Positions 3,938-58,640 of a DNA stretch of 64,000 nucleotides are shown piece after piece. The DNA lies in assembly GCF_988243305.1 (NCBI RefSeq), contig NZ_OZ547136.1. The stretch is one strand, 5' to 3'. Each line of letters begins with the position of its first letter. Positions within the stretch are counted from its first letter, which is position 1. The translations under genes and the position numbers were made by a program. Under the pieces are notes generated by a model. That model did not search any database, was not told the DNA's origin, and saw only the letters and a list, made by a program, of their open reading frames with translations.

Positions 3938-4001
3938 GGCTTGTCATCGCCACATTTGCCCGGTAACGTGCCGGGCATTGCTACTGTAAAATCGCATCAT
4001 C

Positions 4002-5300: not shown

Positions 5301-5306
5301 GTGAAA

Positions 5307-5339: not shown

Positions 5340-5348
5340 GAAAGTCAA

Positions 5349-30662: not shown

Positions 30663-30679
30663 TGTTATTCTCCTTAAAC

Positions 30680-32041
30680 TCAATGGGTCGGAGGGACTGG
30701 CACGGTGCTGTTGTCCGTTGCCATATCCTGTCCGGTATTTTTCAGCAACAGCCAGCGGCTTAACAGCCCATCCAGCCGTTGGTTGATCTCTTTTGCTAGC
30801 GCTTGTGTGTCCTGATTCTGCGTGCGGGTCTCCTGGTACTGCGTCAGCATGTACTCCAGTGGAGTTTCCTGATTCAGTAACCGTTCGGCCTGCCAGGTCA
30901 CCGTTTTGATATACGAGAGGGTGAAACCCTGTTTCTCCGTCTCCTTTTTCATCATCAGATCCGCAAAATCCCGCAAATTCTGCCGCGCCTGTTGCCAGCC
31001 CTTCATCTGCGGACTGGCTTGCGCCCGGTTTCTCAGCGTGGTGCTCCACATCCGGCTGGCTTCCTGCTGTTGCAGGCTTTCCGGCCAGAGGGTGTCTGCG
31101 GTGCGCATCATCTGCATTCCGGTTTCCAGCGGCTGTAGCGGTGGGGTATTCAGAAGCTGTTGCAGGTTCTGTTCATATTCTTTCAGTACCGGTGATGCCA
31201 GCCAGACGGTGGCTGCTCCCTGTGTGGTATCCCTGACCTTTGTAAGCTGCCGCTGCATCGGGTACGTCTGCCACCACCAGAGTGCAGCAGCGATAACGGC
31301 AGTACAGGCGGCACCGGCAACAAAACCTTTTACCGTGTCGCCCTGTTTTGCTTTGTCGGCGTTATCTGCCACTCCGCGCACCTCCACCCGCATTTCCGGC
31401 AGGTCGGGTAGGGGGGGCATGGTTTCCGCTGTGGCGGAAGCCGTGCCTTTAGGCGCATAGACCAGCGTTCTGACCATGGTCTGTACCGCCGTAGCAGTAC
31501 GGTTTCTGGGCTGCGGCTCAAACCGCTTGCGTGTGTTCTGCACAAAATAAAGCAGATTTTCCACGCGCGGTTGGCGCTTCAGTTCCACCTGCTGGAGTTT
31601 GTCGCAGATAAGCTGCAAAGCCCGTTCCGTGCGGTAGAGCAACGAAAGATCATTTTCGGAAAAGGAAACCTGCTGGCGCAGGATATTCCCGGTGCGGGTG
31701 TTGAACCAGTCCAGCATCTCAGTCCTCGCCGGGCCACTTTGCGGCCAGAATTTATCCCATTCGTGGGTGATCATCGCAGCTAGCAGTTCCGCGCCTTCAC
31801 AGAACCCTGCCAGTCCCTGATTACGTGTACGTGCCAGCGTATAGTAGGTGGCGGTATGCAAATCCACCCCGTTGGCCTTAAAAATTGACAGCGCCAGCGA
31901 TTCCACTAGTTTCCAGTTCAGCTCCGGCTGTGACGGGTGGTTAGCTTTGTTAATTTCTTCGCGGATGGCGCTGAACTCCGGCAGGGTACGCGGATCGCTG
32001 CCGGTAACGATAGTTTGTGTCAGTACATTGTTGCTCATCAC
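30680..32041 (-). CDS. vasL: T6SS accessory membrane protein with ImpA-N-like domain (VasL/TagA-like)
   Basis: 453 aa; N-terminal region resembles the ImpA_N domain; single predicted TM helix (GFVAGAACTAVIAAALWWW); sits directly after tssM as vasL does in the V. cholerae cluster. Confidence 0.6.
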   Translation of the reverse strand: MMSNNVLTQTIVTGSDPRTLPEFSAIREEINKANHPSQPELNWKLVESLALSIFKANGVDLHTATYYTLARTRNQGLAGFCEGAELLAAMITHEWDKFWPQSGPARTEMLDWFNTRTGNILRQQVSFSENDLSLLYRTERALQLICDKLQQVELKRQPRVENLLYFVQNTRKRFEPQPRNRTATAVQTMVRTLVYAPKGTASATAETMPPLPDLPEMRVEVRGVADNADKAKQGDTVKGFVAGAACTAVIAAALWWWQTYPMQRQLTKVRDTTQGAATVWLASPVLKEYEQNLQQLLNTPPLQPLETGMQMMRTADTLWPESLQQQEASRMWSTTLRNRAQASPQMKGWQQARQNLRDFADLMMKKETEKQGFTLSYIKTVTWQAERLLNQETPLEYMLTQYQETRTQNQDTQALAKEINQRLDGLLSRWLLLKNTGQDMATDNSTVPVPPTH

Positions 32042-32049
32042 TAACCCCC

Positions 32050-35000: not shown

Positions 35001-35577
35001 CGCCGTCAACATCGAAAATTACTGCCTGGTTGCCCACTCGCGGTGTGATCAGCGGATGATATTCCACACCCCGGATGCTTTCCGGCATGTAAATAATGTC
35101 AGACGGAAAGCCCTCGCGCAGCAGCGTGCTTTTGCCGCTACCCGCAGGACCAATGACCATATACCACGGCAACTGCCACAGATAACTGCGGTTATCCAGA
35201 TGGCGGCGCAGGCGCAGCAGCCAGTGATCCAAATATTGCTGCTGGTGGTGGAGTTCCACGGTCAACGGATCTTTTTCTTCCTCCCGCTGCTGTTTCTGCT
35301 GTTTTTCCAGCTTTTGCAGACGCTTCATTACCCGCCAGGTGAGCCAGACCAGAGCGATAAGCCCCCAGACGGCGGTCGCCAGCCAGCGGTTTGCCAGCGG
35401 AGCCAGCCAGTGCTGCTCATAGAGCGTCCATTTTGGACCCTGCCACCAGATCCACACCAGCAGAAAAATCCATGCCAGCGCCAGCAGCCAGGCGGCGGAT
35501 ACCTTGAATCGCGGCATCGCTGGCCTGAGCGCAGATCTCAACGAGCTGAACAGTCGGGATGTGGGAAATTTGAACAC
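32050..35577 (-). CDS. tssM: T6SS membrane-complex protein TssM (IcmF/VasK)
   Basis: 1175 aa; N-terminal TM helices and Walker A motif GPAGSGKST; size and position match TssM. Exact start uncertain. Confidence 0.9.
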   Translation of the reverse strand: MFKFPTSRLFSSLRSALRPAMPRFKVSAAWLLALAWIFLLVWIWWQGPKWTLYEQHWLAPLANRWLATAVWGLIALVWLTWRVMKRLQKLEKQQKQQREEEKDPLTVELHHQQQYLDHWLLRLRRHLDNRSYLWQLPWYMVIGPAGSGKSTLLREGFPSDIIYMPESIRGVEYHPLITPRVGNQAVIFDVDGVLTSPGGDDLLHRRLREHWLGWLMETRARQPLNGLILTLDLPELLTADKLRREALVQNLRQQLQEIRQCLHCRLPVYVVLTRLDLLTGFAALFHSLDKKDRDAILGVTFTRRAHENDDWRSELSTFWQTWGQQMNLALSDLMLVQTGAALRSAVFSFSRQMQGTGEIVTSLLAALLDGENMDVMLRGVWLTSSLQRGQVDDIFTQSAARQYGLGNSSLATWPLVETTPYFTRRLFPEVLLAEPNLAGENSVWLNSSRRRLTAFSACGAALAALLVGSWHHYYNQNWQSGVNVLAQAKAFMDVPPPQGKDEFGNLQLPLLNPVRDATLAYGDYRDHGFLADMGLYQGVRVGPYVEQTYIQLLEQRYLPSLMNGLIRDLNNAPPESEEKLAVLRVVRMMEDKSGRNNEAVKQYMARRWSNEFHGQRDIQAQLMAHLDYALEHTDWHAQRQSGDSDAISRWTPYDKPVINAQHELSKLPIYQRVYQTLRTKALSVLPADLNLRDQVGPTFDNVFVAGNDEKLVIPQFLTRYGLQSYFIKQHDGLVELTALDSWVLNLTQSVAYSEADREEIQRHITEQYLSDYTATWRAGMDNLNVRDYEAMPALTDALEQIISGDQPFQRALTALRDNTHALTLSGKLDDKAREAVINEMDYRLLSRLGHEFAPENSALEEQKDKASTLQAVYQQLTELHRYLLAIQNSPVPGKSALKAVQLRLDQNSSDPIFATRQMAKTLPAPLNRWVGKLADQAWHVVMVEAVHYMEVDWRDNVVKPFNEQLAGNYPFNPRASQDASLDAFERFFKPDGILDNFYKDNLRLFLENDLTFGDDGRVLIREDIRQQLDTAQKIRDIFFSQQNGLGTQFAVETVSLSGNKRRSVLNLDGQLVDYSQGRNYTAHLVWPNNMREGNESKLTLVGTSGGAPRSIAFSGPWAQFRLFGAGQLTNVTSDTFNVRFNVDGGAMVYRVHVDTEDNPFTGGLFSQFRLPDTLY

Positions 35578-35596
35578 AGTAACTCCTTGTTATCTT

Positions 35597-37039
35597 TTAC
35601 TGTTCTGCCGTGAATTTTTGTTCCAGTGCTTTCAGCAGGGAAGGCTCCCATTCGGGTAGCATCATGTGTAAGCCTGTTTTGAAGAGCATCCGGTACTGCT
35701 GTTGTGCAAGCTGAACCATACCGGCTTCTTCCAGTAACTGCGCGCCGAAAAATTGGCGATGAAACTGGTTACGGGGATCACCTTCGGGCAGGTTTTCCAG
35801 ATACCGCAGCGCGGTTTCCAGCCCGTTCTCATCGAAGCACGCCCTGGCCGCCTGTAATTCTTCATCGGTCTGTACAGCTGCTGCGGTTTGGTTGCCTGAG
35901 CCCGATGGTGCCAGCCACTGTTTCGTCTGTTCGGACACAAACGGAGTGCGGTCGTTAAACAACAGGTTGATCAGTGCGGGCAGGCGAGCAAGAAAACTGG
36001 TAACTTCATCACGGATAGCATCCGCCACCTGTATATAACCAAGGCGCAACGCGGTCTGTGCTGAGAGGTAATGGCCGTCCAGCCAGTACGGGGCCAGCAG
36101 CAGGCTTTTTTCCACCTGCTGCCAAAGCGCCATGTCGGCATTGTTCAGTCGCGCCAGATAGTCATCCATCATATCTACAGGGAAAGCAGCCAGAGGGGTC
36201 CGGCCATCGCTTTCTGCCTGCGGGGTACTGGTGATGGTCTGCCACAGCGCATGGCGGCGCAGGCGGTAACCCAGCGGTGACTCCGGCTGACGTTCACAGA
36301 GAATGGCGGCTACCTTCAACAGGGTGTCGCGCCATGCTTTATCATCGTGGCTGTCCACGGTGACCTGCGGGATTGGAGTGGCTGCAACAGGAGGCTGAGC
36401 GGAAACTGTGTGCGGTAACATATCCGGTGCAGATCCGGTCGTGGCCTGCGGCGCAATGGCGGCGGTTCGTGCAGATGATGGCATTTCAGGCGCTACATCA
36501 CGAAACGCGCGCTGAAACAGAGTAAATAAATCGTCTGTCGCCTTAGCCAGCTCAGGCGCGTTGTGCGCCTGCCAGCACAGTGCCAGTTTTGCCAGCTCTC
36601 CCAGCAAAGCATCGCGCTGTGTTGTCACAGCATTCCCGGCAAAGTCATGAATGGCCGACTCAAAGCGTTTTATCACTTGGGTGGCGAAGCGTTTTTTGTG
36701 GGCCATGTTCTGCGGCGCGGCGCATGTCCAGTAGTGCTCTGTATATTGTGTCAGTATCCTGGAGGCCAGCAGAATATCACCGGCATGTTGCAGGGTACGC
36801 AGCAGGTGGGCCAGCAGGCGAAAATCTTTGGTTTCTGAGGCCAGAAGCATCAGGCCCCGGCGCTGAAGTTCGGGGATATCAAGCTGGCTGTGCGCCAGTG
36901 AACCGAGCTTGACGATTTCGCTGTCGATAAACTCCCAGTCTGCATTGCCATCATCAAGCGCGGCGGACAGCTTATCTTCCGGCAGGTTTTCCAGCAGGTG
37001 TGCAAGCCATATATCAGGATTACGTAAGTCCATTGCCAT
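35597..37039 (-). CDS. tssA: T6SS protein TssA (VasJ; ImpA N-terminal domain)
   Basis: About 480 aa from MAMDLRNPDIWL with RBS AGGAGA; start lies 5 nt from the vasI stop. Confidence 0.8.
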   Translation of the reverse strand: MAMDLRNPDIWLAHLLENLPEDKLSAALDDGNADWEFIDSEIVKLGSLAHSQLDIPELQRRGLMLLASETKDFRLLAHLLRTLQHAGDILLASRILTQYTEHYWTCAAPQNMAHKKRFATQVIKRFESAIHDFAGNAVTTQRDALLGELAKLALCWQAHNAPELAKATDDLFTLFQRAFRDVAPEMPSSARTAAIAPQATTGSAPDMLPHTVSAQPPVAATPIPQVTVDSHDDKAWRDTLLKVAAILCERQPESPLGYRLRRHALWQTITSTPQAESDGRTPLAAFPVDMMDDYLARLNNADMALWQQVEKSLLLAPYWLDGHYLSAQTALRLGYIQVADAIRDEVTSFLARLPALINLLFNDRTPFVSEQTKQWLAPSGSGNQTAAAVQTDEELQAARACFDENGLETALRYLENLPEGDPRNQFHRQFFGAQLLEEAGMVQLAQQQYRMLFKTGLHMMLPEWEPSLLKALEQKFTAEQ

Positions 37040-37043
37040 ATTT

Positions 37044-37787
37044 TTATTCTCCTGCCCAGTGGCAGGCGTCGCGTAGCGGCGCAATAACCCGCGCCAGCCC
37101 GTCAATGTTAAAGGTCAGCTTTCCGGCAGCATTGTCTGTGCCGGTATCAACCGTCAGTGTTTTAGCAGCGAATAGTTGCTTAATTTCATCAATACCGGAT
37201 AACCCCCGGCTGGACTCCAGCAGGGTGCCGTTCTCGCGCACAAACCAGTGGCTGCGCAATGCCCGGCTGTCGGCATTCAGGGTGACGGCGATATCATGGA
37301 CATCCAGAGGATGCATCAGCGCCACCTGCATCCGGGTGATATTGTCCACGCAACTGAACATCAGCACCGGGCGCGGCGGAACATGACCGATAGCCGGGGT
37401 GGTTATCACTACCGTCGGGCGTTCACCCGGCACCTGCGTCACCAGCAGCTCTGTGGTGCTGCCCTGGCGGCGTTTTTCCTGCTCTGTGGCGCGGGTCCAG
37501 GCTTCGCCCACAAAGCTGGCTTTGACCAGTGCGGCGTTGCCGAAGCCGGGCTGTTCCGGTGCAAGAATGCGGTCATAACAGTCAAGCCGCTCCAGCGCCG
37601 CAGATTCCCGCCGACAGGACTGCATGGCCTGTAACGTGGCTGTCGCATCCGGCGGGGGCGTGGTGGCGACGGCGACCGCCGCACCGGCCATTGACGATGT
37701 TTCTGCGGGCGCGGCACTGGCGGGTAAGCCCGCCATCAGGCCCGCGATAAACCATCCTGCCTGCCGGAAAACGCGCAACCTGCTCAT
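37044..37787 (-). CDS. vasI: T6SS-associated protein VasI family (signal-peptide protein)
   Basis: 247 aa; N-terminal signal-like segment (AGLMAGLPASAAPA); lies between clpV and tssA, the position of vasI in V. cholerae. Confidence 0.6.
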   Translation of the reverse strand: MSRLRVFRQAGWFIAGLMAGLPASAAPAETSSMAGAAVAVATTPPPDATATLQAMQSCRRESAALERLDCYDRILAPEQPGFGNAALVKASFVGEAWTRATEQEKRRQGSTTELLVTQVPGERPTVVITTPAIGHVPPRPVLMFSCVDNITRMQVALMHPLDVHDIAVTLNADSRALRSHWFVRENGTLLESSRGLSGIDEIKQLFAAKTLTVDTGTDNAAGKLTFNIDGLARVIAPLRDACHWAGE

Positions 37788-47760: not shown

Positions 47761-49245
47761 TTATTCCTTATCCAGTCGTCCGACCAGGCTCAGGTCGAAA
47801 CTGGCACCCATGTATTTAAAATGCGGTCTGACAGAAATCGCGACCTGGTACCAGCCCGGCTCACCATCCACATCCAGTACCTCGATCTTAGCCTGACGCA
47901 AAGGCCGGTGGCTGCGGACTTCGGCAGGCGGATTTTCCTGGTCAGCAACATACTGGCGAATCCAGGTGTTCAGCTCACGCTCCAGGTCACTACGTTCTTT
48001 CCATGAGCCAAGCTGTTCGCGCTGAATTACCTTGATGTAATGCGCTAACCTGCTGATAACAAACAAGTATGGCAGCTGGGTGCCGAGTTTATAGTTGGTC
48101 TCCGCAGCCTTGCCTTCGGGGGTTTTGGGGAATGTTTTGGGTTTCTGCACCGAGTTGGCCGAGAAAAAGCACGCATTATCAGACCCTTTACGCATGGTCA
48201 GTGTGATAAAGCCCTCTTCCGCCAGCTCATACTCTCTCCGGTCAGTGATCAACACTTCAGTCGGAATTTTTGCCTGCATTTGCCCCATGGATTCATACAG
48301 ATGCACCGGGAGGTCTTTGACTGCGCCGCCGCTGGAAGGGCCAATAATATTTGGGCACCAGCGATACTTAGCAAAACTTTCCGCCAGGTTGGCGGCCAGT
48401 AAAAACGAGGTATTCCCCCACAGATAAGACTCATGACTCTGGCTGACATCTTCATGGTAACGGAAGGTTTTGACAGGGTTTTCATCCGGTGAGTAAGGGT
48501 GGCGCAGCAGGAACCGGGGGGCGGTCAGGCCCAGGTAACGGGAATCTTCCGATTCACGCAGGGCGCGCCAGCGGGAGTAGGCCGGGCCTTCAAAGATGGC
48601 ACCCGGTTCTTTGATCCCCGGTAACTCTGTCCATGAATCCAGACCGAAAAATTCGGATGATACTGACGACAGGAACGGGCTGTGCGCCATCGCGCTGACC
48701 TGGCTGATATATTTCAGCAACTTCATATCCGGCGTGGTGTTCTTAAAGGCAAAGTTGCCGATTACCGCCGCCACTGGCTCACCGCCAAATTGTCCGTAAC
48801 CGCTTGAATATACATGCTTGTAATACGCAGACTGCGTGATTTCAGGTGCAAATTCGAAATCATCCAGCAGTTCTTCCTGAGTGACATTCAGGAAATGGAC
48901 TTTGATGTTTTCCCGTGTATCCGCGCGTTCAACCAGCAGCTTCAGCGAGCGCAGCAGGGATTCCAGTTCCTGAAACTCCGGGGCATGAATAATGGCATCC
49001 ATCTGCCTGCTGGTTCGGGCATCAATATCAGCAATCATGGCGTCAACGGCCAGGATATTGATAGGTTCAGCGCTACTGTCGCCCTGTAACATGGCGGCAA
49101 TAAAGGCGCTCACGCCCTGGCGGGTGATATCGTAGCTTTCTGATTTAGGCTGGACGCGGGTTTGCGCCATGATTTCATCAAGCAGAGATGGGGGCGCGGC
49201 GGTTTGAGACGCGCTGACGGGAGCAATTTCTTCCTTTACTGACAT
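47761..49245 (-). CDS. tssC: T6SS contractile sheath large subunit TssC (VipB)
   Basis: 494 aa; highly conserved sheath protein length and position. Confidence 0.93.
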   Translation of the reverse strand: MSVKEEIAPVSASQTAAPPSLLDEIMAQTRVQPKSESYDITRQGVSAFIAAMLQGDSSAEPINILAVDAMIADIDARTSRQMDAIIHAPEFQELESLLRSLKLLVERADTRENIKVHFLNVTQEELLDDFEFAPEITQSAYYKHVYSSGYGQFGGEPVAAVIGNFAFKNTTPDMKLLKYISQVSAMAHSPFLSSVSSEFFGLDSWTELPGIKEPGAIFEGPAYSRWRALRESEDSRYLGLTAPRFLLRHPYSPDENPVKTFRYHEDVSQSHESYLWGNTSFLLAANLAESFAKYRWCPNIIGPSSGGAVKDLPVHLYESMGQMQAKIPTEVLITDRREYELAEEGFITLTMRKGSDNACFFSANSVQKPKTFPKTPEGKAAETNYKLGTQLPYLFVISRLAHYIKVIQREQLGSWKERSDLERELNTWIRQYVADQENPPAEVRSHRPLRQAKIEVLDVDGEPGWYQVAISVRPHFKYMGASFDLSLVGRLDKE

Positions 49246-49267
49246 ACTGAAAATCCTTCTGTGAAAA

Positions 49268-49771
49268 TTATTTCTGAACGGCGATACCCAGTTCCTGGAT
49301 CAGCTGCTCGCGGCTGTCTTCGTTTTCCAGTAGCGCCTGAAGTTGTGCGCGGAAGGCCGGAATATTGCCTAGTGGAGACTTAAGTGCGACCAGTGCCTCA
49401 CGCAGCTCCAGCAGGCGCTTTATTTCCGGCACCTGACTGGCAATATGGTCAGGAGAAAGGTCATCCATAGATTTGACTTTCAGGTTGACGTACATTTGCT
49501 CATTGGGAGCGTCACTGAGTTCAGCCGGAACAACAAACTCCCGTTCAATGTCAGCTTCTGAAATGACTGCGTTGAGGTTATAGCGGTTGATAGCAATGGC
49601 AGTTCGCTCATCCAACGGCGTGTTATCTGGTTTCCCTTTCAGATTGCCGGTGATCAATAAATTCAGCGGCAATTCGATATCAGCAGCCACCCCATCAACT
49701 TTTGGTGTATACCGAACGCTGATTCTTTCTTTCGGCGCGACACTGCCGCCATTGTTGTTCATTTTGCTCAT
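49268..49771 (-). CDS. tssB: T6SS contractile sheath small subunit TssB (VipA)
   Basis: About 167 aa from MSKMNNNGGSVAPKERISVRYTPK; first gene of the minus-strand operon. Confidence 0.9.
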   Translation of the reverse strand: MSKMNNNGGSVAPKERISVRYTPKVDGVAADIELPLNLLITGNLKGKPDNTPLDERTAIAINRYNLNAVISEADIEREFVVPAELSDAPNEQMYVNLKVKSMDDLSPDHIASQVPEIKRLLELREALVALKSPLGNIPAFRAQLQALLENEDSREQLIQELGIAVQK

Positions 49772-49822
49772 AAAAATGTTCCCGTTCAGGCCATGAGCAC
49801 AGCATTTTCGTACTGCATACAA

Positions 49823-50474
49823 ATACCGACAATACCGTTTCAGTGGCAGTTAGATAATGTAACCTTCTTTCTGTTGTGATCGGTATTCTACTCATGAAAT
49901 AAAATATTAAAAGAACTATTTATATTTTTGAAAGAGATGTATCCTTCATTATTAATACATGATAGTGAAATCAATTTTGGTATTTATAGACTTGGTGAAT
50001 ATAATTTTACGGCCAATAAAGTGCAATAACACATTGATTTATATGTGTTTATTAAATTGATTAATAAGTTTTGTGTATGGTTTTATAAATTAGTTAATTG
50101 CTAGCAATACATCATAAGAAATTCCTTTAAGGAATATCTTAATTGCGTGCAGGAACGATGGTGAAGTAAGTGTTGTAATAATTTATTTTTGACGAAACTG
50201 TAGGTTTTTATGGGGATAAGGATACGTTATGGATAATTCTACTGTTGATGTTGATATATTTTTAGCTTATGTGACCGTGTTCTGAAATTGACTAAAAATA
50301 TATTTAAACACCATAAAAGAGTTTTTCGGTAGGTGCTAATTACGTGTGCCTGTAACTCGAATAAAGAAAAGGGTGTGGTTCCTGATGTGAGCCGCATCAC
50401 ACTCTAACCTGTCGGGGATTAACGACGGGTTGTTCGTAAAAACAGCAGTTGATAATTTCACAAGGAGTTCACAA
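49823..50474. promoter_or_regulatory. AT-rich divergent control region between tssB (minus) and hcp-vgrG (plus)
   Basis: About 650-700 bp strongly AT-rich non-coding spacer between the two divergently transcribed T6SS units; contains a GATC at 49878..49881 and AT-rich tracts; no individual promoter elements confidently assigned. Confidence 0.6.
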
Positions 50475-50993
50475 ATGCCAACCCCATGTTACATTTCTAT
50501 TACGGGCCAGACCCAGGGGAACATCACTGCCGGTGCTTTCACCGCGGATTCTGTCGGCAATATCTACGTGCAGGGGCACGAAGATGAAATGCTGGTGCAG
50601 GAGTTTTTGCACAACGTTACTGTTCCAACCGATCCGCAGTCTGGCCAGCCTTCCGGCCAGCGCGCGCACAAACCGTTCATTTTCACCGTGGCGCTGAACA
50701 AAGCCGTTCCGCTGCTGTACAACGCGCTGGCCTCCGGTGAAATGCTGCCGAAAGTGGAGCTGCACTGGTGGCGTACTTCAGTTGAAGGCAAGCAGGAGCA
50801 CTACTTCACCACACGTCTTACTGACGCGACGATTGTGGACATGAACCTGCACATGCCGCACTGCCAGGACCCTGCACAGCGTGAGTTTACGCAATTGCTC
50901 GCAGTATCACTGGCATACCGTAAGGTTGAGTGGGAGCACATCAAATCCGGTACTTCTGGTGCCGATGACTGGCGTGCACCGCTGGAAGCATAA
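50475..50993 (+). CDS. hcp: T6SS tube protein Hcp (TssD), canonical copy
   Basis: 172 aa from MPTPCYISITGQTQGNITAGAF with RBS AAGGAG; strong resemblance to the canonical Hcp as remembered from V. cholerae. Confidence 0.92.
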   Translation: MPTPCYISITGQTQGNITAGAFTADSVGNIYVQGHEDEMLVQEFLHNVTVPTDPQSGQPSGQRAHKPFIFTVALNKAVPLLYNALASGEMLPKVELHWWRTSVEGKQEHYFTTRLTDATIVDMNLHMPHCQDPAQREFTQLLAVSLAYRKVEWEHIKSGTSGADDWRAPLEA

Positions 50994-51213: not shown

Positions 51214-53196
51214 ATGTCCTTAAAAGGTCTGCGCTTTACGCTGGAGGTTGACGGCCAGGAGCCGGACACCTTTGCAGTGGTGAATTTCAGGTTAATCCAG
51301 AACCAGTCATATCCGTTTGTGATGAGTGTGGATGTTGCCAGCGACTCTTTTATGCAGACGGCGGAGATGCTGCTGGAGAAGAAGGCGACACTGACCATCT
51401 GGCAGGGCGCAGTGGCGCAGCGTTATGTCACCGGCGTGGTGGCGGGTTTTGGCATGCAGGAGAATAACGGCTGGCAGATGCGTTATCACCTGCGTATTGA
51501 GCCGCCGTTATGGCGGTGCGGGCTGCGGCAGAACTTCCGTATCTTCCAGCAGCAGGATATCCGGACGATATCGGCCACGTTACTGAACGAGAACGGCGTC
51601 ACGGAGTGGACGCCGCTGTTTTATGAGGACCATCCGGCGCGGGAGTTCTGTGTCCAGTACGGGGAGTCGGACCTGGCGTTTCTGTCCCGGCTGTGGGCGG
51701 AGGAGGGAATTTTCTTCTTTGAGCGGTTTGCGGCGGACAGTCCGGAGCAGAAGCTGACGCTGTGCGACGATGTGGCGGGGCTGTCACAGGCGGGAGAGCT
51801 TCCGTTTAACCCGGACACATCGACAGGAGCGGAGACGGAGTGTGTCAGTATGTTCCGTTATGAGGCGCATGTCCGCCCGTCGTCGGTGCAGAGCCAGGAT
51901 TACACGTTTAAGGTGCCGGACTGGCCGGGGATGTATGAGCAGCAGGGTGAGAACCTGAACGGACAGCTGGCGCAGTATGAGATATTTGATTATCCGGGAA
52001 GGTTCAAGGACGAGCAGCACGGCAAGGATTTCACGCTGTACCAGATGGGCAGCCTGCGCAGTGATGCGGAAAAGGCCACAGGGCAGAGTAATTCACCGAA
52101 GCTGTGGCCGGGAACGCAGTTTACGCTGACGGGGCATCCGCAGAAGATGCTGAACCGTGAATGGCAGGTGGTACAGAGCATACTGTCAGGAAGCCAGCCG
52201 CAGGCGCTGCACGGCAGCCAGGGGAGAGGAACCACGCTGGGAAATCAGTTAGAGGTGATACCGGCAGACCGGACGTGGCGTCCACGGCTGCAAAGCAAAC
52301 CGAAGGTGGACGGGCCACAGAGCGCCATTGTCACCGGGCCTGCGGGAGAGGAAATCTTCTGCGACGAACATGGCCGGGTACGGGTGAAGTTCCACTGGGA
52401 CCGTTATCACGGGATGACGGAGGCGAGTTCATGCTGGGTGCGGGTATCGCAGGCGTGGGCGGGGCCGGGTTTCGGCAATCTGGCGATACCGCGGGTGGGT
52501 CAGGAGGTGATTGTTGATTTCCTGAACGGCGACCCGGACCAGCCGATAATCATGGGACGGACATACCATGAGGACAACCGTTCGCCGGGGAGTCTGCCGG
52601 GGACGAAGACGCAGATGACGATACGGTCGAAGACCTATAAAGGAAGCGGATTTAACGAACTGCGCTTTGAGGACGCCACAGATAAGGAACAGGTCTATAT
52701 TCACGCGCAGAAGAACATGGATACGGAAGTGCTGAATGACCGGACGACGGACGTGAAGCATGACCACACGGAAACCATTGGTAACGACCAGAAGATAACG
52801 GTGGGGTTGGGCCAGACGGTGAATGTGGGGAGCAAAAAGGAAGGTGGTCATGACCAGAAAGTGACGGTAGCGAACGATCAGCATCTCACGATAAAAAATG
52901 ACCGGCACAAGGTTGTAAATAACAACCAGACAAGCAAGGTGACGGGAACTGATACCGAAGAAGTCGTCAAAAAACAGAGTATTAAAATAGGTGATAATTA
53001 CGAACTGAAAGTTGAGCATGGTACAAAAATCATATCTGGGGACAGTATTGAGCTAATTTGTGGGCAGGGAGAGAGCGGGACTTGTTCCATAAAACTGGAG
53101 AAAACAGGAAAGATAATAATACGGGGGACGGAGTTTCTATTTGAGGCTACCGGTCCTGTAGATATTAAAGGAAAAGATATTCATCTGAACGGATAG
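51214..53196 (+). CDS. vgrG: T6SS spike protein VgrG (TssI), no C-terminal toxin extension
   Basis: 660 aa; gp27/gp5-like VgrG; C-terminal repeats (HDQKVTVANDQHLTIKNDRHKV); the 3' about 350 nt are visibly AT-richer than the rest. Confidence 0.92.
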   Translation: MSLKGLRFTLEVDGQEPDTFAVVNFRLIQNQSYPFVMSVDVASDSFMQTAEMLLEKKATLTIWQGAVAQRYVTGVVAGFGMQENNGWQMRYHLRIEPPLWRCGLRQNFRIFQQQDIRTISATLLNENGVTEWTPLFYEDHPAREFCVQYGESDLAFLSRLWAEEGIFFFERFAADSPEQKLTLCDDVAGLSQAGELPFNPDTSTGAETECVSMFRYEAHVRPSSVQSQDYTFKVPDWPGMYEQQGENLNGQLAQYEIFDYPGRFKDEQHGKDFTLYQMGSLRSDAEKATGQSNSPKLWPGTQFTLTGHPQKMLNREWQVVQSILSGSQPQALHGSQGRGTTLGNQLEVIPADRTWRPRLQSKPKVDGPQSAIVTGPAGEEIFCDEHGRVRVKFHWDRYHGMTEASSCWVRVSQAWAGPGFGNLAIPRVGQEVIVDFLNGDPDQPIIMGRTYHEDNRSPGSLPGTKTQMTIRSKTYKGSGFNELRFEDATDKEQVYIHAQKNMDTEVLNDRTTDVKHDHTETIGNDQKITVGLGQTVNVGSKKEGGHDQKVTVANDQHLTIKNDRHKVVNNNQTSKVTGTDTEEVVKKQSIKIGDNYELKVEHGTKIISGDSIELICGQGESGTCSIKLEKTGKIIIRGTEFLFEATGPVDIKGKDIHLNG

Positions 53197-53302
53197 TGCA
53201 GGATATAAAACATGGTGATTGTATTTGCTTTATACGCCTGTGAATCACCATTTGTGATTGTTTAAATTAATCATAGCATGACTTATTCAGGAATCAATAA
53301 GC

Positions 53303-54349
53303 ATGATAGAAATGAAAAATAACACACCATTTCCTTTGTTGTCATTTGAAAAATATGGTCGTTATGGTCTTTTGTTTGATGTTATTGCTATTAAAATGTC
53401 ATTGCGAATTAAAAATGGATTTTATGCTGATCTTGCTGAGTTTCAAAAAGAATTGTCCATGTCTGATGAATACTATGGGGAGTCTGAAACAAGTAGTCTA
53501 AAATCTGAAACAGACTTAGTTCTTTGTAAAAGAAATACAGATATTCACGTGACAGGTAGTGCTCATGCCCCTCCAGGGGATAAGTCTAAGTGGAAGGCTT
53601 GTGTGAGGGTTAATAGTTTTTCTAAAGAACTGAGTTTATCTGGTGTCCGCTACTTACAATATGAGCGAAATCGTTGGCAGATGAGCTTACCAGATAAAAT
53701 TATTAATGTTCCTCTACGCTATGAGCTTGCTTACGGTGGTATTTGGCAACCAGATGGTATGGAGAAATTGGTTTTTTCAGCAAACCCTGTAGGTTGTGGA
53801 TATTATCCTGATATTTCTCAACTTAATACAAGTTGTCAATATAAACTCCCACAAATAACCAGCTCTGCTTTGTCAGAAAACGCTACCATTTTTAATGGGG
53901 AATCTGACTTTTTTCAAGGTGTTGGCCCTGTATCTCGATGGTGGAAAAGTCGCCTCCAGTATGCAGGAACCTACAATGAAGTATGGCGTGAAAAGCGCTA
54001 TCCCTATTTGCCGGATGATTTTGATGAGCGGTTCTACAATAGTGCTCATCCGGATATGATATACACGGGGTTTCTCTCTGGCGATGAAAACATCTCTCTT
54101 GAAGGTTTTTTTAAATTTGAACAGGTTGTTAAGACAAAATTGCCAGGTATACGACCTGTACTTATATTAAAAACCAAGCATAATACATCACATATGTTCT
54201 TACCTGTTGCGGATACAATGGTTATCGATTTAAGTCGACAGGAAATATACCTTACCTGGAGATTAACAATACCTGATTTTTTTGGAATGAAAGAAGGAGT
54301 GCTGAGTTGTATTATTCCTGAATGTATAGGGAAAAAATATTATGGGTAA
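53303..54349 (+). CDS. Putative T6SS adaptor protein (DUF2169-like)
   Basis: 348 aa AT-rich gene immediately downstream of vgrG and translationally coupled (8 nt overlap) to a PAAR-like effector gene, the canonical DUF2169 context; assignment is by context and size, not verified by search. Confidence 0.5.
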   Translation: MIEMKNNTPFPLLSFEKYGRYGLLFDVIAIKMSLRIKNGFYADLAEFQKELSMSDEYYGESETSSLKSETDLVLCKRNTDIHVTGSAHAPPGDKSKWKACVRVNSFSKELSLSGVRYLQYERNRWQMSLPDKIINVPLRYELAYGGIWQPDGMEKLVFSANPVGCGYYPDISQLNTSCQYKLPQITSSALSENATIFNGESDFFQGVGPVSRWWKSRLQYAGTYNEVWREKRYPYLPDDFDERFYNSAHPDMIYTGFLSGDENISLEGFFKFEQVVKTKLPGIRPVLILKTKHNTSHMFLPVADTMVIDLSRQEIYLTWRLTIPDFFGMKEGVLSCIIPECIGKKYYG

Positions 54350-55382
54350 CTATCATATCGGGGATGGTGAATGTAGATTTAGAGTCGTGTGTTCTTCACC
54401 AGATGTATGTGAAGTAGGAGGTTACAAGGTTCCTTTTGACAGTTACCAGACTTTAGATAGTGAAAGACAGTACAGTTCAACGGTATGGGCGCGTGGATGC
54501 AGAGCTTTAAATGTTGGTTCAGTGATTGCTGGAACTCAAAGTAATGCCGGTAAAGGTGTCATATCCGGTACATCTCAAGGAACGGGTGACTGTGTTATTT
54601 TAACGGGAAGTCCGACTGTAACAATAGAAGGGAAACCTGTTGCTTATCATGGTTCAGTTGTTGGGATTAATAACCATAACTGCCTTGGTAAATTGTATAC
54701 CAAAATAAAATCACCAATGATTTCTGTCATTGATAAAACTTTTAGTTATGAAAGGACTGCTGAAGTAATACACGATTTACTGCTTCTGAAGGATCTCCTT
54801 TCTGTTGGGAATATTTTGGGCGGAGATATTTCACCTGAGGTTAAAAATGATTTATTTCAAATAAAAGATCCTGACCAATCATGGGGGGAGTTTTTTTCAA
54901 TAAAGAATATCAGAGAATCTCTCAGGAATGGTATTGAAGGAGATAAATCTCAGATCAGAGAATGGTTTGGAGAGAACACACTTACTCAAATGGGCAATGG
55001 AGCAATCACCACTTTACATGGTGTGGCGGATTTAGCCTTAGTTACATTCGATGCTCTGTTAGATACGGCAACGGCAACGGTTGCTTGCCCGATAGGCGAA
55101 GATGGGTTATGTGAACAGGCAAATATAAATTTAAATGAAAAAGAACAGGCTTTATTTAATATTAGTAATTCATTGATAAATGGGCAAGCATGGGATGCAC
55201 TTAAAAAAATGATAATGGATACAAATAATGGTGATCAGATTGCTCTGGAGCATTTTGCCAGCTTTTTATGGGGCTTTATGATACCCGCAAAAATACCAGA
55301 AGAAAATATCTCTGGGAAAGTATTTGTAGAGCCAGTAGTTTTAGAAGGTGGTGCTGGTGGCAATTGGACAGTATTTGATTAG
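54342..55382 (+). CDS. PAAR-like (DUF4150-type) T6SS effector, N-terminal and linker portion; ends at an in-frame TAG
   Basis: 346 aa; N-terminal about 125 aa with the DUF4150-like pattern (GTGDCVILTGSPTVTIEGKPVAYHGSVVGINNHNCLG); helical central region; the stop TAG at 55380..55382 is in frame with the following toxin-like ORF. Confidence 0.6.
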   Translation: MGNYHIGDGECRFRVVCSSPDVCEVGGYKVPFDSYQTLDSERQYSSTVWARGCRALNVGSVIAGTQSNAGKGVISGTSQGTGDCVILTGSPTVTIEGKPVAYHGSVVGINNHNCLGKLYTKIKSPMISVIDKTFSYERTAEVIHDLLLLKDLLSVGNILGGDISPEVKNDLFQIKDPDQSWGEFFSIKNIRESLRNGIEGDKSQIREWFGENTLTQMGNGAITTLHGVADLALVTFDALLDTATATVACPIGEDGLCEQANINLNEKEQALFNISNSLINGQAWDALKKMIMDTNNGDQIALEHFASFLWGFMIPAKIPEENISGKVFVEPVVLEGGAGGNWTVFD

Positions 55383-55409
55383 GTTTTAGATTCAAATGTA
55401 ATAAAGCAA

Positions 55410-55781
55410 TTGACTTTAACAGGCTGTGGAGCGGCCTGTGGGGAAATGTTGCTTAGGGATAGGTATATTTTTGTCACGCAAAATGTAATTGGAACAGAAT
55501 TAACATCTATGACGTCGCTGGCAAACAAGCTTAATAAATTTGATGTCGGCTGGGAAGGGAATGAAGTGAGCGAATCTAGTTTATATGCCCTCAGTAATAC
55601 TGGTTCATGGGGAGCAATGATGTGGGATTCTGGAAGTAAAGTAGGGCATTGGGTACTTGTTAAGGGTGTTGATGATGCTGGGAATGTGATAATATATGAT
55701 CCATATCAAGGGAGTCGATATCTGATGACTGAACAGGAATTTAAGGAGGTATGGAATGGGCATAGTGTTTACAAACCATAA
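55410..55781 (+). pseudogene. Papain/C39-like cysteine-peptidase toxin domain, in frame with the upstream PAAR ORF (split by one TAG codon)
   Basis: 123 codons with no ATG or RBS before the putative catalytic Cys (GCGAACGEMLL); His (GHWVLVKG) and Asp (DDAGNVIIYDP) complete a papain-like Cys-His-Asp order reminiscent of peptidase C39; continuous with ORF 54342..55382 except for one TAG. Confidence 0.45.
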
Positions 55782-56046
55782 TATTGATTTGTTATCGGTT
55801 GAATTTGATGAGATTACAAAAAATTGTAATTACACTTTTAGTGTAGATGGAGAGACGGCTATCTTTACTGCTAGAATATCAATAATAAGAAATATAAAGG
55901 GAATTAAATATAGCGAAGAACTTGATAAATTTATAATGTCAATAATGCCATTGCAGCCTAAAGTATCAAAAATTTTGGGAGGTGTTACTTGGGATTGTAT
56001 TTGTGGTAAGGAAGTTGGATTTCCTGTGAGATTAATTGGTAAGTGA
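55756..56046 (+). CDS. Candidate cognate immunity protein (cytoplasmic)
   Basis: 96 aa; strong RBS AAGGAGG 7 nt before the ATG; overlaps the last 26 nt of the toxin-domain ORF; no signal peptide. Confidence 0.5.
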   Translation: MGIVFTNHNIDLLSVEFDEITKNCNYTFSVDGETAIFTARISIIRNIKGIKYSEELDKFIMSIMPLQPKVSKILGGVTWDCICGKEVGFPVRLIGK

Positions 56047-56284
56047 AGGGTGGTGAGGTATTTCTATATTTTTTTTCGTGAAAGTCTTTAAAACTAAAAT
56101 TATCTTGTTGGGAGCCCAAGGTGAGATCATAAAACGTATTATTTTATAAATATTGTTATGCAGGGAAAGGTCAAGTAATGCTGCTTTTTTGTACTAAATA
56201 ATTCGCATTTTATGTTCAATAATTGAGGTGTTCCTTATTACCTAAAGCTGTTTTTCATTGCTTATACATGATCAAATACTCATT

Positions 56285-57130
56285 GCATAATTAAGGGGGC
56301 AAAATGGAACTTAAAAAATTGATGGAACATATTTCTGTTATCCCCGATTACAGGCAAGCCTGGAAAGTGGAACATAAATTGCCAGATATTCTATCTGTTA
56401 ACTATTTGCGCCGTTATTTCTGGTGCATAAGGCTGGGAAGATATAGAGGATTTGGGGAAACACATCTCGATTTTTTGAAGTGATATGGTGATTTTGAAAA
56501 TGGTATTCCTGTTCACGATATCATTGCCAGAGTTGTATCCTGTATCAGTCCTGCAAAATTTTACGAGTGCTTTATTAACTGGATGCGTGACTGTCATTCT
56601 TCAGATGATAAAGACATCATCGCAATTGATGGAAAAACGCTCCGGCACTCTTATGATAAAAGTCGTCAAAAGGGAGCAATTTATGTCATTAAAATCCGTC
56701 TTCATATTGTTTGCATGTCTCTGATGAATTTATTGATTTTACGTTTGAATGGAAAGGGCTGAAGAAATTATGCATGGCAGTCTCATTTCGCTCAATAATA
56801 GCAGAACAAAAGAAAAATCCCGAAATGACGGTCAGATATTATAGCATTTCTGCTGATTTAACCGCAGAGAAGTTCGCCACAGCGAACCGAAATCACTGGC
56901 AAGTGGAGAATAAATTGCACTGGCATCTGGACGTGGTAATGAATAAAGACGACTTCAAAATAAGAAGAGGAAATGCAGCAGAATTATTTTCAGGGATACG
57001 GAAGATCGCTATTAATATTTTAACGAAAGATAAGATAATCAAGGCAGGGGCAAGATGTAAGATGTGAAAAGCAGCTGCGGACAGAGACTACCTCGCGTCA
57101 GTCCTTGCGGGGGCGGGCTTTCGTAATCTT
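56285..57130 (+). pseudogene. ISAs1-family (H-repeat-associated) transposase, degenerate: frameshifts plus internal deletion
   Basis: Segments matching the N-terminus ([26 protein letters not shown]...GETHLDFLK), middle ([10 protein letters not shown]...[19 protein letters not shown]) and C-terminus ([12 protein letters not shown]...[18 protein letters not shown]...[20 protein letters not shown]) of H-repeat transposases in different frames, with about 120 codons missing from the middle. Confidence 0.75.
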
Positions 57131-57295
57131 GTTCTGCAAGGGATGATAAAAAGTGCAACTTTATTCCACGCAGCTATTTAGACAGCGTACAGTAAACAAA
57201 CGAAAGTTGTTATTTCAATGGTCAGGGCAAGAGCATGAAGTGTTTACTACACACTATGCTCTTGTCCTGGAGTCAGGTCTTGTCTGGAGGGATAA

Positions 57296-57864: not shown

Positions 57865-58377
57865 ATGAATAAACGGATTGAATGTGTTATGTTAAAAATG
57901 AGTTTATACGTAATAATATTGTTATTTTCCTTTCAGATTAGTGCAGCCATTACTAGCAAGGAAAGTGAGGTTGTTTCACCATTATTAATGGATGTTAATT
58001 CTTCACTAACAATGGAAAATATATCTGAATTATCCACATCATCGGAACCATCGCAACAGGGGGTATTTCCTGTAATATGTACTCGACTTCATCCTGGCTC
58101 CGTAATGAAACGCCAGTTATTAACCGGCTGGGGGCCTGTTTTTATAATTGGTGATGATCCTTTTTCTCTGCGCTGGATGAGTGAACATCTGGAGATCCTT
58201 AAATCGCTAAATGCCCTTGGTTTGGTTGTTAATGTTGAATCAGTAGAACGAATGGAGGTATTACAGCAGCGGGCTGATGGGTTATTGTTATTGCCAGTTA
58301 TCTGCGATAATTTCGTGCAAACTCTGCAATTAAATGCTTATCCGGTATTAATCACAGAGATGGAAATATCACAATGA
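57865..58377 (+). CDS. Hypothetical exported protein (signal peptide)
   Basis: 170 aa ORF with N-terminal signal-like segment (MLKMSLYVIILLFSFQISAAITS); AT-rich; no recognisable family. Confidence 0.45.
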   Translation: MNKRIECVMLKMSLYVIILLFSFQISAAITSKESEVVSPLLMDVNSSLTMENISELSTSSEPSQQGVFPVICTRLHPGSVMKRQLLTGWGPVFIIGDDPFSLRWMSEHLEILKSLNALGLVVNVESVERMEVLQQRADGLLLLPVICDNFVQTLQLNAYPVLITEMEISQ

Positions 58378-58394: not shown

Positions 58395-58640
58395 GCAAAT
58401 AATATCGTAATTTTGAAAATGGTAATCCTGTTCACGACACCATAATTAGAGTTATGTCTTGTATCCGTTCAGTATAATTTCACGAATGCTTTATTAACTG
58501 GATGCGAGATTGCCATTCATCAAATGATAAAGACGTCATCGCAATTGATGGAAAAGCGCTTCCACACTCCTATGATAAAAGTGGTCGCAGGAGAGCGGGC
58601 TTTCGTAGTCATACCCCGACTCTCCCCAGCCCTAAACACA
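58395..58640 (+). pseudogene. yafF: ISAs1-family (H-repeat) transposase fragment, second copy (yafF-like remnant)
   Basis: About 220 bp direct repeat of 56490..56700 encoding FENGNPVHDTI...[35 protein letters not shown], adjacent to yafV. Confidence 0.7.

What the first reader, a model, noticed from the sequence alone, without database searches (positions are those of the whole stretch)
52800..53196. Compositional break inside vgrG: the 3' end shares the low GC of the effector cargo
The first about 1.6 kb of vgrG is GC-rich like the T6SS core, while roughly the last 350 nt (encoding ...KNDRHKVVNNNQTSKVTGTDTEEVVKKQSIKIGDNYELKVEHGTKIISG...) are conspicuously AT-rich, matching the downstream adaptor, effector and immunity genes (53.3 to 56.0 kb). 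This suggests a recombination junction within vgrG, with the VgrG C-terminal tip swapped as a unit together with its cognate adaptor and effector.
Basis: seen in the sequence. Interest (0 to 1): 0.55.

Follow-up and report, generated by a model that had tools for sequence, protein, structure and literature searches.

The report
Chimeric vgrG: cargo-linked AT-rich tip
The last ~100 codons of this E. coli type VI secretion spike gene (vgrG) really are foreign, AT-rich DNA that travels as one unit with the downstream adaptor, toxin and immunity genes, but this is an ordinary example of a way of swapping toxin cassettes already described in other bacteria.

Summary
Observation confirmed. vgrG (51214-53196) has a sharp composition step. 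The maximum-likelihood change point is 52891 (support 52820-52917). GC falls from 0.58 to 0.40 and GC3 from 0.72 to 0.34. None of 5000 codon shuffles reach this step, and no other long ORF in the window comes close. The tip matches the downstream cargo (GC 0.37).

Interpretation supported and refined. E. coli vgrG alleles with other cargo (DUF4123, M35, M23) are 93-96% identical to this one up to 52679-52719 or 52877-52903, and homology then collapses. Six other carriers of the same cargo differ by 4-11% across vgrG up to 52773. From 52774 to about 56280 they differ by only 0-0.8%, which is less than the flanking backbone (2.3-3.2%). The exchanged unit is therefore vgrG codons ~521-660, the DUF2169 adaptor, the PAAR-like (PIPY)-Cpe1 toxin and Cpi1. 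It is bounded on the right by an ISAs1 remnant.

The tip belongs to a family that, in every informative context examined, sits upstream of DUF2169 and, where the contig reaches far enough, a DUF4150 gene. That explains the linkage.

The phenomenon is already published for Pantoea/Erwinia (2011), Agrobacterium (2021) and P. aeruginosa (2025). Cpe1/Cpi1 is characterised (2025). Low novelty.

The parts
50475..50993 (+). hcp (tssD), last conserved gene before vgrG
   Evidence: The ORF is. It is 519 nt, like the annotated Hcp in L003/L015. GC is 0.557. It shows 2.9% divergence from other carriers.
51214..53196 (+). vgrG (tssI), 660 aa, chimeric
   Evidence: TIGR03361 scores 605.8 bits (cut-off 186) over residues 8-519. 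Pfam finds Phage_GPD 34-328, Phage_base_V 385-451, and Gp5_trimer_C 468-542 and 545-603.
51214..52773 (+). Conserved GC-rich vgrG core (gp27-like hub, gp5 OB fold, first beta-helix turns). It is shared at 93-98% with alleles carrying other cargo, and is the left homology arm.
   Evidence: Searches give the identity profiles. There are 4-11 differences per 100 nt against same-cargo carriers, and the last difference is at 52773. The core is a mosaic in which successive bins each best match a different paralogue.
52774..52890 (+). GC-rich beta-helix segment that already belongs to the invariant cargo module
   Evidence: There are 0 differences among 7 carriers. Identity to M35/M23 alleles is only 63-77% from 52804 (97/93/93% in the 52774-52803 bin). 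GC is 0.53.
52891..53196 (+). AT-rich VgrG tip (codons 560-660), ending in the ...IELxCG...GTEFxFxAxGPVxIKGKxIxLN motif. It is the presumed docking end for the PIPY cone.
   Evidence: GC is 0.40 and GC3 0.34. There is no homology to the tips of DUF4123/M35/M23 alleles. The conserved motif is shared with VgrGs that precede DUF2169 genes in other taxa. No solved VgrG structure matches beyond residues ~535-555, apart from one weak match (9jg8, E = 1.7e-07) reaching residue 609.
53303..54349 (+). DUF2169 accessory/chaperone gene
   Evidence: Pfam DUF2169, E = 2.7e-71, residues 27-320. GC is 0.37 and GC3 0.28. RefSeq names near-identical proteins 'DUF2169 family T6SS accessory protein'.
54342..55781 (+). 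PAAR-like (DUF4150/PIPY)-Cpe1 cysteine-protease effector. In this strain it is interrupted by an in-frame TAG at 55380-55382.
   Evidence: Pfam finds Tox-PAAR-like 15-115 (1.4e-11) and Peptidase_C39 352-474 (7.9e-6) on the read-through translation. The codon is GAG in L003/L015 and TAG in the window and NY1601. Other strains have an intact 479-aa ORF.
55756..56046 (+). cpi1 immunity gene
   Evidence: It shows 0 differences from carriers whose identical protein WP_000513317.1 is annotated 'cysteine protease immunity protein Cpi1'. Cpe1/Cpi1 are described in PMC12136450.
56161..57131 (+). ISAs1-family transposase remnant. It forms the right border of the cassette and is a candidate right homology arm.
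   Evidence: Homology with loci carrying other cargo resumes here: L001 at 56161-56933, L006/L007/L008 at 56692-57131, and L022 at 56176-56656. SNP density rises again from ~56280.

Best explanation
vgrG in this E. coli T6SS-1 island is a chimera. Codons 1 to ~520 encode the conserved spike body (gp27-like hub, gp5 OB fold, first beta-helix turns). This part must fit the one Hcp tube and baseplate, and it is shared at 93-98% nucleotide identity by all vgrG paralogues and alleles of this system. Codons ~521-660 encode the distal beta-helix and its blunt end. This segment is cargo-specific and is inherited as one block of about 3.5 kb together with the DUF2169 chaperone, the PIPY (PAAR-like)-Cpe1 toxin and the Cpi1 immunity gene. 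The last 306 nt of vgrG and all of the cargo have the same low GC, which marks them as DNA from an AT-richer donor that was fused to an E. coli-type core near 52891. Present-day exchange happens by homologous recombination or gene conversion. One crossover lies in the conserved core; in this strain it is at 52773/52774. The other lies downstream of the immunity gene, plausibly in the ISAs1 remnant found to the right of every cassette examined. The linkage is functional: the PIPY cone and its DUF2169 chaperone need a matching VgrG end, so only recombinants that carry tip, chaperone and effector together remain able to fire. Shown here: the composition step, the allele breakpoints, the invariance of the block, and the co-occurrence of this tip family with DUF2169/DUF4150. 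Inferred: the direction and mechanism of transfer, the physical tip-PIPY-DUF2169 fit, and the role of ISAs1.
For: The composition step is significant and is present at synonymous sites. Alleles with other cargo lose homology at 52679-52719 or 52877-52903. Among 7 carriers, vgrG nt 1-1560 carry 27-107 differences in all but two near-identical strain pairs (0-1), while nt 1561-5066 carry 0-20. The backbone differs by 3.2% (tssBC) and 2.3% (yafV-ivy) between the window and the carriers, against ~0.5% for the block. The block is >=99% identical in about 300 of 5426 complete E. coli genomes. It occurs in two contexts: directly after hcp, and after a PAAR gene inside a tandem vgrG array. The same GC3 step near the 3' end is seen in the M35 allele (codon 694 of 801, 0.74 to 0.37) and the M23 allele. 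VgrGs with related tips are followed by DUF2169, plus Tox-PAAR-like wherever the contig reaches, in L011, L012-14, L020, L021, L022 and L023. The Hafnia paralvei homologue is collinear, has the same tip family and shows no GC step. There is no terminator and no convincing promoter between vgrG and the adaptor gene. Literature: DUF2169 is needed for the VgrG-PIPY spike (PMC11883445); vgrG has an internal recombination hot spot and its 3' end moves with downstream genes (PMC8546570, PMC11751169); vgrG 3' ends share the low G+C of vgrG islands (PMC3235180).
Against: Only 11 alleles from 9 genomes were aligned base by base. The endpoint classes in the other ~400 genomes come from a 60-row sample of BLAST hits. 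The GC step (52891) and the SNP-defined junction (52774) do not coincide, so at least two events of different age must be assumed. No donor was found: the nearest non-E. coli adaptors are only 55-59% identical, and a species-level genome scan found nothing. The DUF4123 allele class has a variable tip with almost no GC step (GC3 0.75 to 0.61), so 'tip composition equals cargo composition' is not universal. Binding of this tip to PIPY/DUF2169 was not tested.
Confidence: 0.85

Rival explanations
1. The tip and cargo are resident and did not move. What moves is the core: the vgrG 5' 1.5 kb is repeatedly overwritten by gene conversion from paralogous vgrG copies, and conversion tracts simply stop where homology ends. 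On this view the junction is the edge of homogenisation, not the edge of an imported cassette.
For: The window's core is a patchwork in which successive 120-nt bins are each nearly identical to a different paralogue (L008, L001, L007, L006). The core is more divergent between carriers (up to 6.9%) than the backbone (2.3-3.2%). Genomes carry a median of 2 and up to 7 matching vgrG copies.
Against: The block is 4-6 times less diverged than the flanking backbone genes. It occurs in two different gene contexts. Relics of it lie at a second chromosomal locus, yncG-yddH, in O145:H28. The block itself has therefore spread. The two processes are not exclusive, and both place a recombination junction inside vgrG.
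Confidence: 0.25
2. The low GC of the tip is an intrinsic property of this protein segment, caused by its Ile/Lys/Asn-rich beta-helix end or by selection for particular codons. It is not a mark of foreign origin.
For: The tip is enriched in Ile (12.9%) and Lys (12.9%). Related tips in other Enterobacterales are also the lowest-GC part of their vgrG (L012 GC3 0.35-0.54, L022 0.36-0.58).
Against: The drop is present within synonymous codon families. Tip relatives occur in genomes from 38% to 64% GC and follow the host's composition (L011 GC3 ~0.28 throughout; L010 locus GC 0.635). Hafnia shows no step. Sequence homology between allele classes also collapses there.
Confidence: 0.05
3. The cassette is mobilised by the adjacent ISAs1 element, through transposition or one-ended events, rather than by homologous recombination.
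For: ISAs1 fragments lie to the right of every cassette class seen, and also to the left of the yncG-locus vgrG island.
Against: All the ISAs1 copies here are fragments or pseudogenes. The left boundary lies inside an open reading frame and keeps the frame. It also differs between allele classes, as expected for homologous or homology-facilitated exchange and not for IS ends. No terminal inverted repeats or target duplications were found at 52.7-52.9 kb.
Confidence: 0.07

Closest known systems
vgrG islands of Pantoea/Erwinia T6SS-1 (De Maayer et al. 2011, PMC3235180)
   Same: The 5' part of vgrG has the G+C of the conserved T6SS core (63.7%). The 3' part has the low G+C of the variable island downstream (46.6%). 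The authors concluded that the 3' end belongs to the island.
   Different: In those species the low-GC part is mostly a C-terminal extension of 'evolved' VgrGs. Here it is the end of the beta-helix itself, with no extra domain. No allele-level breakpoints were mapped in that study.
Recombination hot spot within the COG3501/TIGR03361 region of Agrobacterium vgrG (PMC8546570)
   Same: The N-terminal core is conserved and the C-terminal portion is polymorphic and confers effector specificity. A fragment comprising the vgrG 3' portion and all downstream genes displaces the resident one. tap2 (DUF2169) loci always carry DUF4150.
   Different: The genus is different. Here the junction lies at the very end of TIGR03361 (codon ~521), there is a strong GC contrast, and an ISAs1 remnant is a constant right border.
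Effector swapping in P. aeruginosa T6SS islands (PMC11751169)
   Same: The 3' end of vgrG6, the effector and the immunity gene are replaced together. The new 3' end is presumed to mediate loading of the new effector.
   Different: That study proposed homology-facilitated illegitimate recombination. No GC step was reported for that case.
Chimeric Tap-1 (DUF4123) adaptors of Vibrio cholerae (PMC4557670)
   Same: There is a junction inside a loading-machinery gene. The 3' end shares the GC of the effector gene and co-segregates with it.
   Different: The junction is in the adaptor gene rather than in vgrG, and the GC difference is only ~3%.
VgrG-DUF2169-PIPY spike complexes, synteny type B (PMC11883445)
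   Same: The gene order is vgrG, DUF2169, then an effector with an N-terminal DUF4150 domain.
   Different: That work did not address the VgrG tip as a separately inherited segment. The window effector has KVPF where the P(I/V)P(Y/F) motif is expected.
Cpe1/Cpi1 of E. coli (PMC12136450)
   Same: The window carries the same effector/immunity pair. The identical Cpi1 protein is annotated as such in RefSeq.
   Different: In this strain cpe1 has a premature TAG between the carrier domain and the protease domain.

Membership tests
VgrG/TssI spike protein (TIGR03361) | Full-length match to the VgrG core model above the curated cut-off, with gp27-like and gp5 OB domains | tested here: met
   605.8 bits against a cut-off of 186, residues 8-519. 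Pfam finds Phage_GPD, Phage_base_V and Gp5_trimer_C. PDB VgrG1 4mtk matches at E = 2.9e-87 over residues 37-535.
Chimeric vgrG with cargo-linked 3' end (vgrG-internal recombination hot spot) | Core conserved across alleles that carry different cargo | tested here: met
   Identity is 93-96% over 1.47-1.69 kb with the DUF4123, M35 and M23 alleles at two loci.
Chimeric vgrG with cargo-linked 3' end (vgrG-internal recombination hot spot) | Homology between alleles collapses inside the gene, downstream of the core | tested here: met
   Breakpoints lie at 52679-52719 and at 52877-52903.
Chimeric vgrG with cargo-linked 3' end (vgrG-internal recombination hot spot) | The 3' end co-segregates with the downstream adaptor, effector and immunity genes | tested here: met
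   There are 0-0.8 differences per 100 nt from 52774 to ~56280 in 6 other carriers, against 4-11 upstream. About 300 genomes hold the block at >=99% identity.
Chimeric vgrG with cargo-linked 3' end (vgrG-internal recombination hot spot) | Tip required for loading of the cognate effector | not testable with these tools
   This needs secretion and competition assays with tip-swapped VgrGs.
DUF2169-PIPY spike module, synteny type B | DUF2169 gene immediately downstream of vgrG | tested here: met
   Pfam DUF2169, E = 2.7e-71.
DUF2169-PIPY spike module, synteny type B | Next gene begins with a DUF4150/Tox-PAAR-like domain | tested here: met
   Tox-PAAR-like, residues 15-115, E = 1.4e-11.
DUF2169-PIPY spike module, synteny type B | Conserved P(I/V)P(Y/F) motif in the cone domain | tested here: inconclusive
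   The sequence reads Y-K-V-P-F at residues 28-32, so the first Pro is replaced by Lys. It was not aligned to the published family.
Cpe1/Cpi1 papain-like protease effector-immunity pair | C-terminal papain-like/C39 protease domain followed by the Cpi1 gene | tested here: met
   Peptidase_C39, residues 352-474, E = 7.9e-6. cpi1 is identical to WP_000513317.1, which is annotated Cpi1.
Cpe1/Cpi1 papain-like protease effector-immunity pair | Intact effector reading frame | tested here: not met
   There is a TAG at 55380-55382 where other strains have GAG. The toxin is probably not delivered in this strain.
Evolved VgrG (C-terminal effector domain) | An additional enzymatic or toxin domain after the beta-helix | tested here: not met
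   The protein ends at residue 660 with Gp5_trimer_C-type repeats only.

The most novel reading that the evidence does not exclude
In E. coli, the conserved vgrG core on the left and an ISAs1 remnant on the right may work as the two fixed homology arms of a cassette-exchange site. This site would be used at both the T6SS-1 island and the yncG-yddH vgrG island. It would let any tip-adaptor-toxin-immunity block be swapped, stacked in tandem or deleted to leave orphan immunity genes. The C-terminal ~60-residue motif (IELxCG...GTEFxFxAxGPVxIKGKxIxLN) would be a sequence signature that predicts PIPY/DUF2169-type rather than PAAR-type spike capping.
Probability: 0.3. Interest if true: 0.4.

Novelty: already known. 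Interest (0 to 1): 0.22.

Why it matters
The finding shows, for a well-sampled species, where the swappable part of the T6SS spike begins: codon ~521 for exchange and codon 560 for composition. It also shows that the spike tip, the chaperone, the toxin and the immunity gene are one inheritance unit. This is useful for annotating T6SS cargo modules, for predicting which VgrG loads which effector, and for engineering chimeric spikes. It does not change the current picture of T6SS effector evolution. It adds a clean E. coli example with base-level junctions.

Tried and rejected
- A word-indexed protein search with the 102-aa tip returned only five E. coli fragments and no full-length VgrGs, so it was uninformative. 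The exhaustive representative search gave 26 relatives.
- The contigs for two tip relatives (P0009, P0018) ended at the vgrG stop, so their context is unknown.
- A species-level genome scan with the DUF2169 protein found nothing. The nearest non-E. coli adaptors are 55-59% identical, so the donor remains unidentified.
- No Rfam family was found in 49.8-58.6 kb.
- There is no terminator and no above-chance promoter signal around the vgrG stop.
- The only repeats are a weak 24-nt beta-helix repeat and a 16-nt imperfect inverted repeat in the spacer. These give no support for a site-specific or IS-end mechanism.
- Solved VgrG structures match only to residues ~535-555, apart from one weak match (9jg8, E = 1.7e-07) that reaches residue 609. 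No template for the tip's terminal ~50 residues was found, and I did not attempt a monomer AlphaFold model of a trimeric beta-helix.
- An early MAFFT count overstated divergence downstream of cpi1 because of indels. BLAST gives ~2.4% (versus 52, 54).
- The antisense ORF 52429-53019 (196 aa) inside vgrG was treated as spurious and not pursued.
Full report
**Context**

The window is an Escherichia coli chromosome segment. tRNA-Asp (aspV) lies at 28654-28730. It is followed by a T6SS-1-type cluster: tssB/tssC on the minus strand at 47.8-49.8 kb, hcp at 50475-50993 and vgrG at 51214-53196. The island ends at yafV, ivy and fadE from 58.6 kb. This is confirmed by near-identical annotated genomes.

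Downstream of vgrG lie four features:
- a DUF2169 gene at 53303-54349 (Pfam E = 2.7e-71);
- an effector at 54342-55781 with an N-terminal Tox-PAAR-like/DUF4150 domain and a C-terminal C39/papain-like protease domain;
- a 96-codon gene at 55756-56046, identical to the protein that RefSeq names Cpi1;
- ISAs1 remnants.

The effector/immunity pair is Cpe1/Cpi1, a T6SS toxin that cleaves GyrB and ParE (PMC12136450).

**1.

| Region | GC |
|---|---|
| vgrG 51214-52799 | 0.582 |
| T6SS core 30183-49822 | 0.562 |
| Cargo 53303-56046 | 0.374 |

- A one-split likelihood scan places the step at 52891 (2-lnL support about 52820-52917) when cargo is included. With vgrG alone it falls at 52834.
- At third codon positions the step is 0.72 to 0.34, at codon 577 (support codons 535-581).
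- The log-likelihood ratio of 23.1 was not reached in any of 5000 codon-order shuffles (maximum 9.4). The largest value among 28 other long ORFs of the window is 6.9.
- The drop is seen within synonymous families (Lys 0.78 to 0.23, Thr 0.85 to 0.44, Val 0.81 to 0.43, Gly 0.57 to 0.33). It is therefore not just the Ile/Lys-rich composition of the tip.

**2. Alleles with other cargo are not collinear**

In 5426 complete E. coli genomes, 296 hold vgrG plus the adaptor over at least 80% of the query. In a 60-row sample spread across the ranking, other genomes match only the 5' part at 93-96% identity, with matches ending at query positions 1475, 1664 or 1690. These correspond to window 52688, 52877 and 52903.

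Inspection of representative genomes showed four other arrangements:
- vgrG + DUF4123 adaptor + unknown effector, at the same T6SS-1 locus and at the yncG-yddH island;
- an 801-aa VgrG + M35 peptidase;
- a 715-aa VgrG + M23 peptidase;
- a truncated vgrG in O145:H28.

Base-level alignments show 93-98% identity through the core. Identity then collapses at 52679-52719 for the DUF4123 class. For the M35 and M23 classes there is an intermediate 63-77% zone from 52804, and homology is lost at ~52894. That last point coincides with the GC step.

**3. Alleles with the same cargo show the reverse pattern**

The comparison used six other carriers: APEC O2:K1, ST95, two UPEC strains, and two strains in which the module sits behind a PAAR gene in a tandem vgrG array.

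| Interval | Differences from the window |
|---|---|
| vgrG 51214-52773 | 4-11 per 100 nt; last difference at 52773 |
| 52774-52890 | 0 |
| 52891 to ~56280 | 0.3-0.8 per 100 nt |
| ISAs1 remnant, 56280-57000 | density rises again |

- Between the other carriers, apart from two near-identical strain pairs (0-1 differences), the core carries 27-49 differences and the 3.5-kb block 0-6. The last core differences fall at vgrG nt 1379-1464.
- Flanking backbone genes differ by 3.2% (tssBC) and 2.3% (yafV-ivy) between the window and these strains, against ~0.5% for the block.
- The block is at least 99% identical in roughly 300 genomes.
- The block is therefore younger than the strains that carry it. 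Its left edge lies inside vgrG at codon ~490-521, which is the end of the TIGR03361 VgrG core model (residues 8-519).

**4. The core is itself a recombination substrate**

Successive 120-nt bins of the window's core are each nearly identical to a different paralogue: L008, then L001, L007 and L006. The core is more polymorphic among carriers than the backbone is. This fits frequent gene conversion among the 2-7 vgrG copies per genome.

**5. Why the tip travels with the cargo**

An exhaustive search of 1.84 billion representative proteins found only 26 relatives of the 102-aa tip. In every context where downstream sequence was available, the VgrG carrying such a tip is followed by DUF2169. Wherever the contig reaches far enough, a Tox-PAAR-like/DUF4150 gene follows as well. 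The contexts were:
- L011, a 38%-GC organism;
- L012-L014, with EndoU cargo;
- L020, with Tle1-like cargo;
- L021, with GHH2 cargo;
- L022, Escherichia sp. HH26CH, with Ntox15 cargo;
- L023, Hafnia paralvei, with Rhs cargo.

The tips share a C-terminal motif, IELxCG...GTEFxFxAxGPVxIKGKxIxLN. By contrast, E. coli alleles with DUF4123 or M35 cargo have unrelated ends, and at the yncG-yddH island and in tandem arrays they are preceded by a canonical PAAR gene.

Sachar et al. (PMC11883445) showed that DUF4150 ('PIPY') cones need a cognate DUF2169 chaperone to form a spike with VgrG. The obvious inference is that this tip family is the VgrG end adapted to PIPY/DUF2169. I did not test it. If it holds, only recombinants that keep tip, chaperone and effector together stay functional.

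In Hafnia the collinear vgrG has the same tip type and no GC step. In the 38%-GC organism the whole gene is uniformly AT-rich. The step in E. coli therefore reflects fusion of an E. coli-type GC-rich core to a tip of AT-richer origin. The donor was not found: the nearest adaptors outside this clonal E. coli block are 55-59% identical (Salmonella salamae, Escherichia sp., Hafnia).

**6. Generality and limits**

A similar 3'-terminal GC3 step exists in the M35 allele (codon 694 of 801, 0.74 to 0.37) and the M23 allele. In the DUF4123 allele it is weak (0.75 to 0.61).

Every cassette examined has an ISAs1 fragment on its right. This makes a two-arm homologous exchange plausible, with the vgrG core on the left and ISAs1 on the right, but it is not proven.

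The O145:H28 locus shows a vgrG cut at the junction zone and joined to the last 913 nt of cpe1-cpi1, followed by M35 relics. That is the kind of orphan-immunity array expected from successive displacement.

The GC step (52891) and the SNP-defined junction (52774) differ by 117 nt. The intervening segment is GC-rich but specific to the block. At least two events of different age must be assumed.

**7. Comparison with what is known**

- De Maayer et al. 2011 reported for Pantoea/Erwinia that the vgrG 5' regions have the G+C of the T6SS core and the 3' parts the low G+C of the vgrG island. They concluded that the 3' parts belong to the islands (PMC3235180).
- In P. aeruginosa, the 3' end of vgrG6 was found to be swapped together with the effector and immunity genes (PMC11751169).
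- Unterweger et al. made the equivalent argument for tap-1 in V. cholerae (PMC4557670).
- A 2019 review noted that no such study had been done in E. coli (PMC6730261). I found none either. The E. coli junction map is therefore an incremental addition, not a new principle.

**Verdict**

It is a textbook-type example of a known mechanism, involving an already characterised effector. Interest is low.

Noticed in passing
window 55380-55382: cpe1 carries an in-frame TAG where other strains have GAG (G to T at 55380). This separates the PIPY carrier part (346 aa) from the C39 protease domain. The mutation is shared with strain NY1601, while other carriers have an intact 479-aa ORF. The toxin is probably not delivered in this strain, although cpi1 is intact.
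   Followed up: yes
L007 6001-8386 (E. coli O145:H28 RM12761, yncG-yddH locus): vgrG is truncated at the window-equivalent position 52679 and joined directly to window 55280-56192 (99.2% identity). This leaves an orphan cpe1 3' end plus cpi1, followed by M35 peptidase fragments. It looks like a relic of successive cassette displacement.
   Followed up: partly
window 56161-57131 and 58397-58597: ISAs1-family transposase remnants lie to the right of the cassette. An ISAs1 fragment lies to the right of every other cargo class examined, including Escherichia sp. HH26CH, and also to the left of the yncG-locus vgrG island. They could serve as a right-hand homology arm.
   Followed up: partly
window 51214-52773: The vgrG core is a fine-scale mosaic. 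Successive 120-nt bins are each nearly identical (0-1 differences) to a different paralogue or allele. Overall the core is more polymorphic between strains than the neighbouring backbone genes.
   Followed up: partly
L009 (strain NY1601), locus 4343-5556: The only genome that is 99.9-100% identical to the window across this region has an ISEc31 (IS3 family) element inserted in vgrG. This splits off a tip-only ORF, which RefSeq annotates as a 'T4 gp5 trimerisation domain' protein.
   Followed up: no
L012 1372-1629, also L013 and L014: A related vgrG (72% nt identity, with DUF2169 + PAAR-like + EndoU cargo) has an in-frame TAG just upstream of the tip in three independent metagenome contigs. This leaves an 81-aa tip ORF. 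Whether it is a pseudogene or a deliberately split gene is unknown.
   Followed up: no
L004 165-10835 and L018: In some strains the Cpe1 module is the second unit of a tandem array: vgrG-DUF4123 cargo, then PAAR, then vgrG-DUF2169-Cpe1. A canonical PAAR gene therefore sits directly upstream of a VgrG whose tip is of the PIPY-associated type.
   Followed up: no
window 49800-50400: The intergenic region between the divergent tssB and hcp genes is very AT-rich (GC 0.20-0.35). It is presumably the divergent promoter/regulatory region of the cluster.
   Followed up: no
window 57865-58377: An ORF matching the PFL_4695 family integrating-conjugative-element protein (TIGR03765, E = 2.2e-35) lies stranded between ISAs1 fragments, just inside the yafV border of the island.
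   Followed up: no
window 53205-53258: An imperfect 16-nt inverted repeat (81% complementary, 22-nt spacer) lies in the vgrG-DUF2169 spacer. It has no T-tract and there is no terminator call.
   Followed up: no
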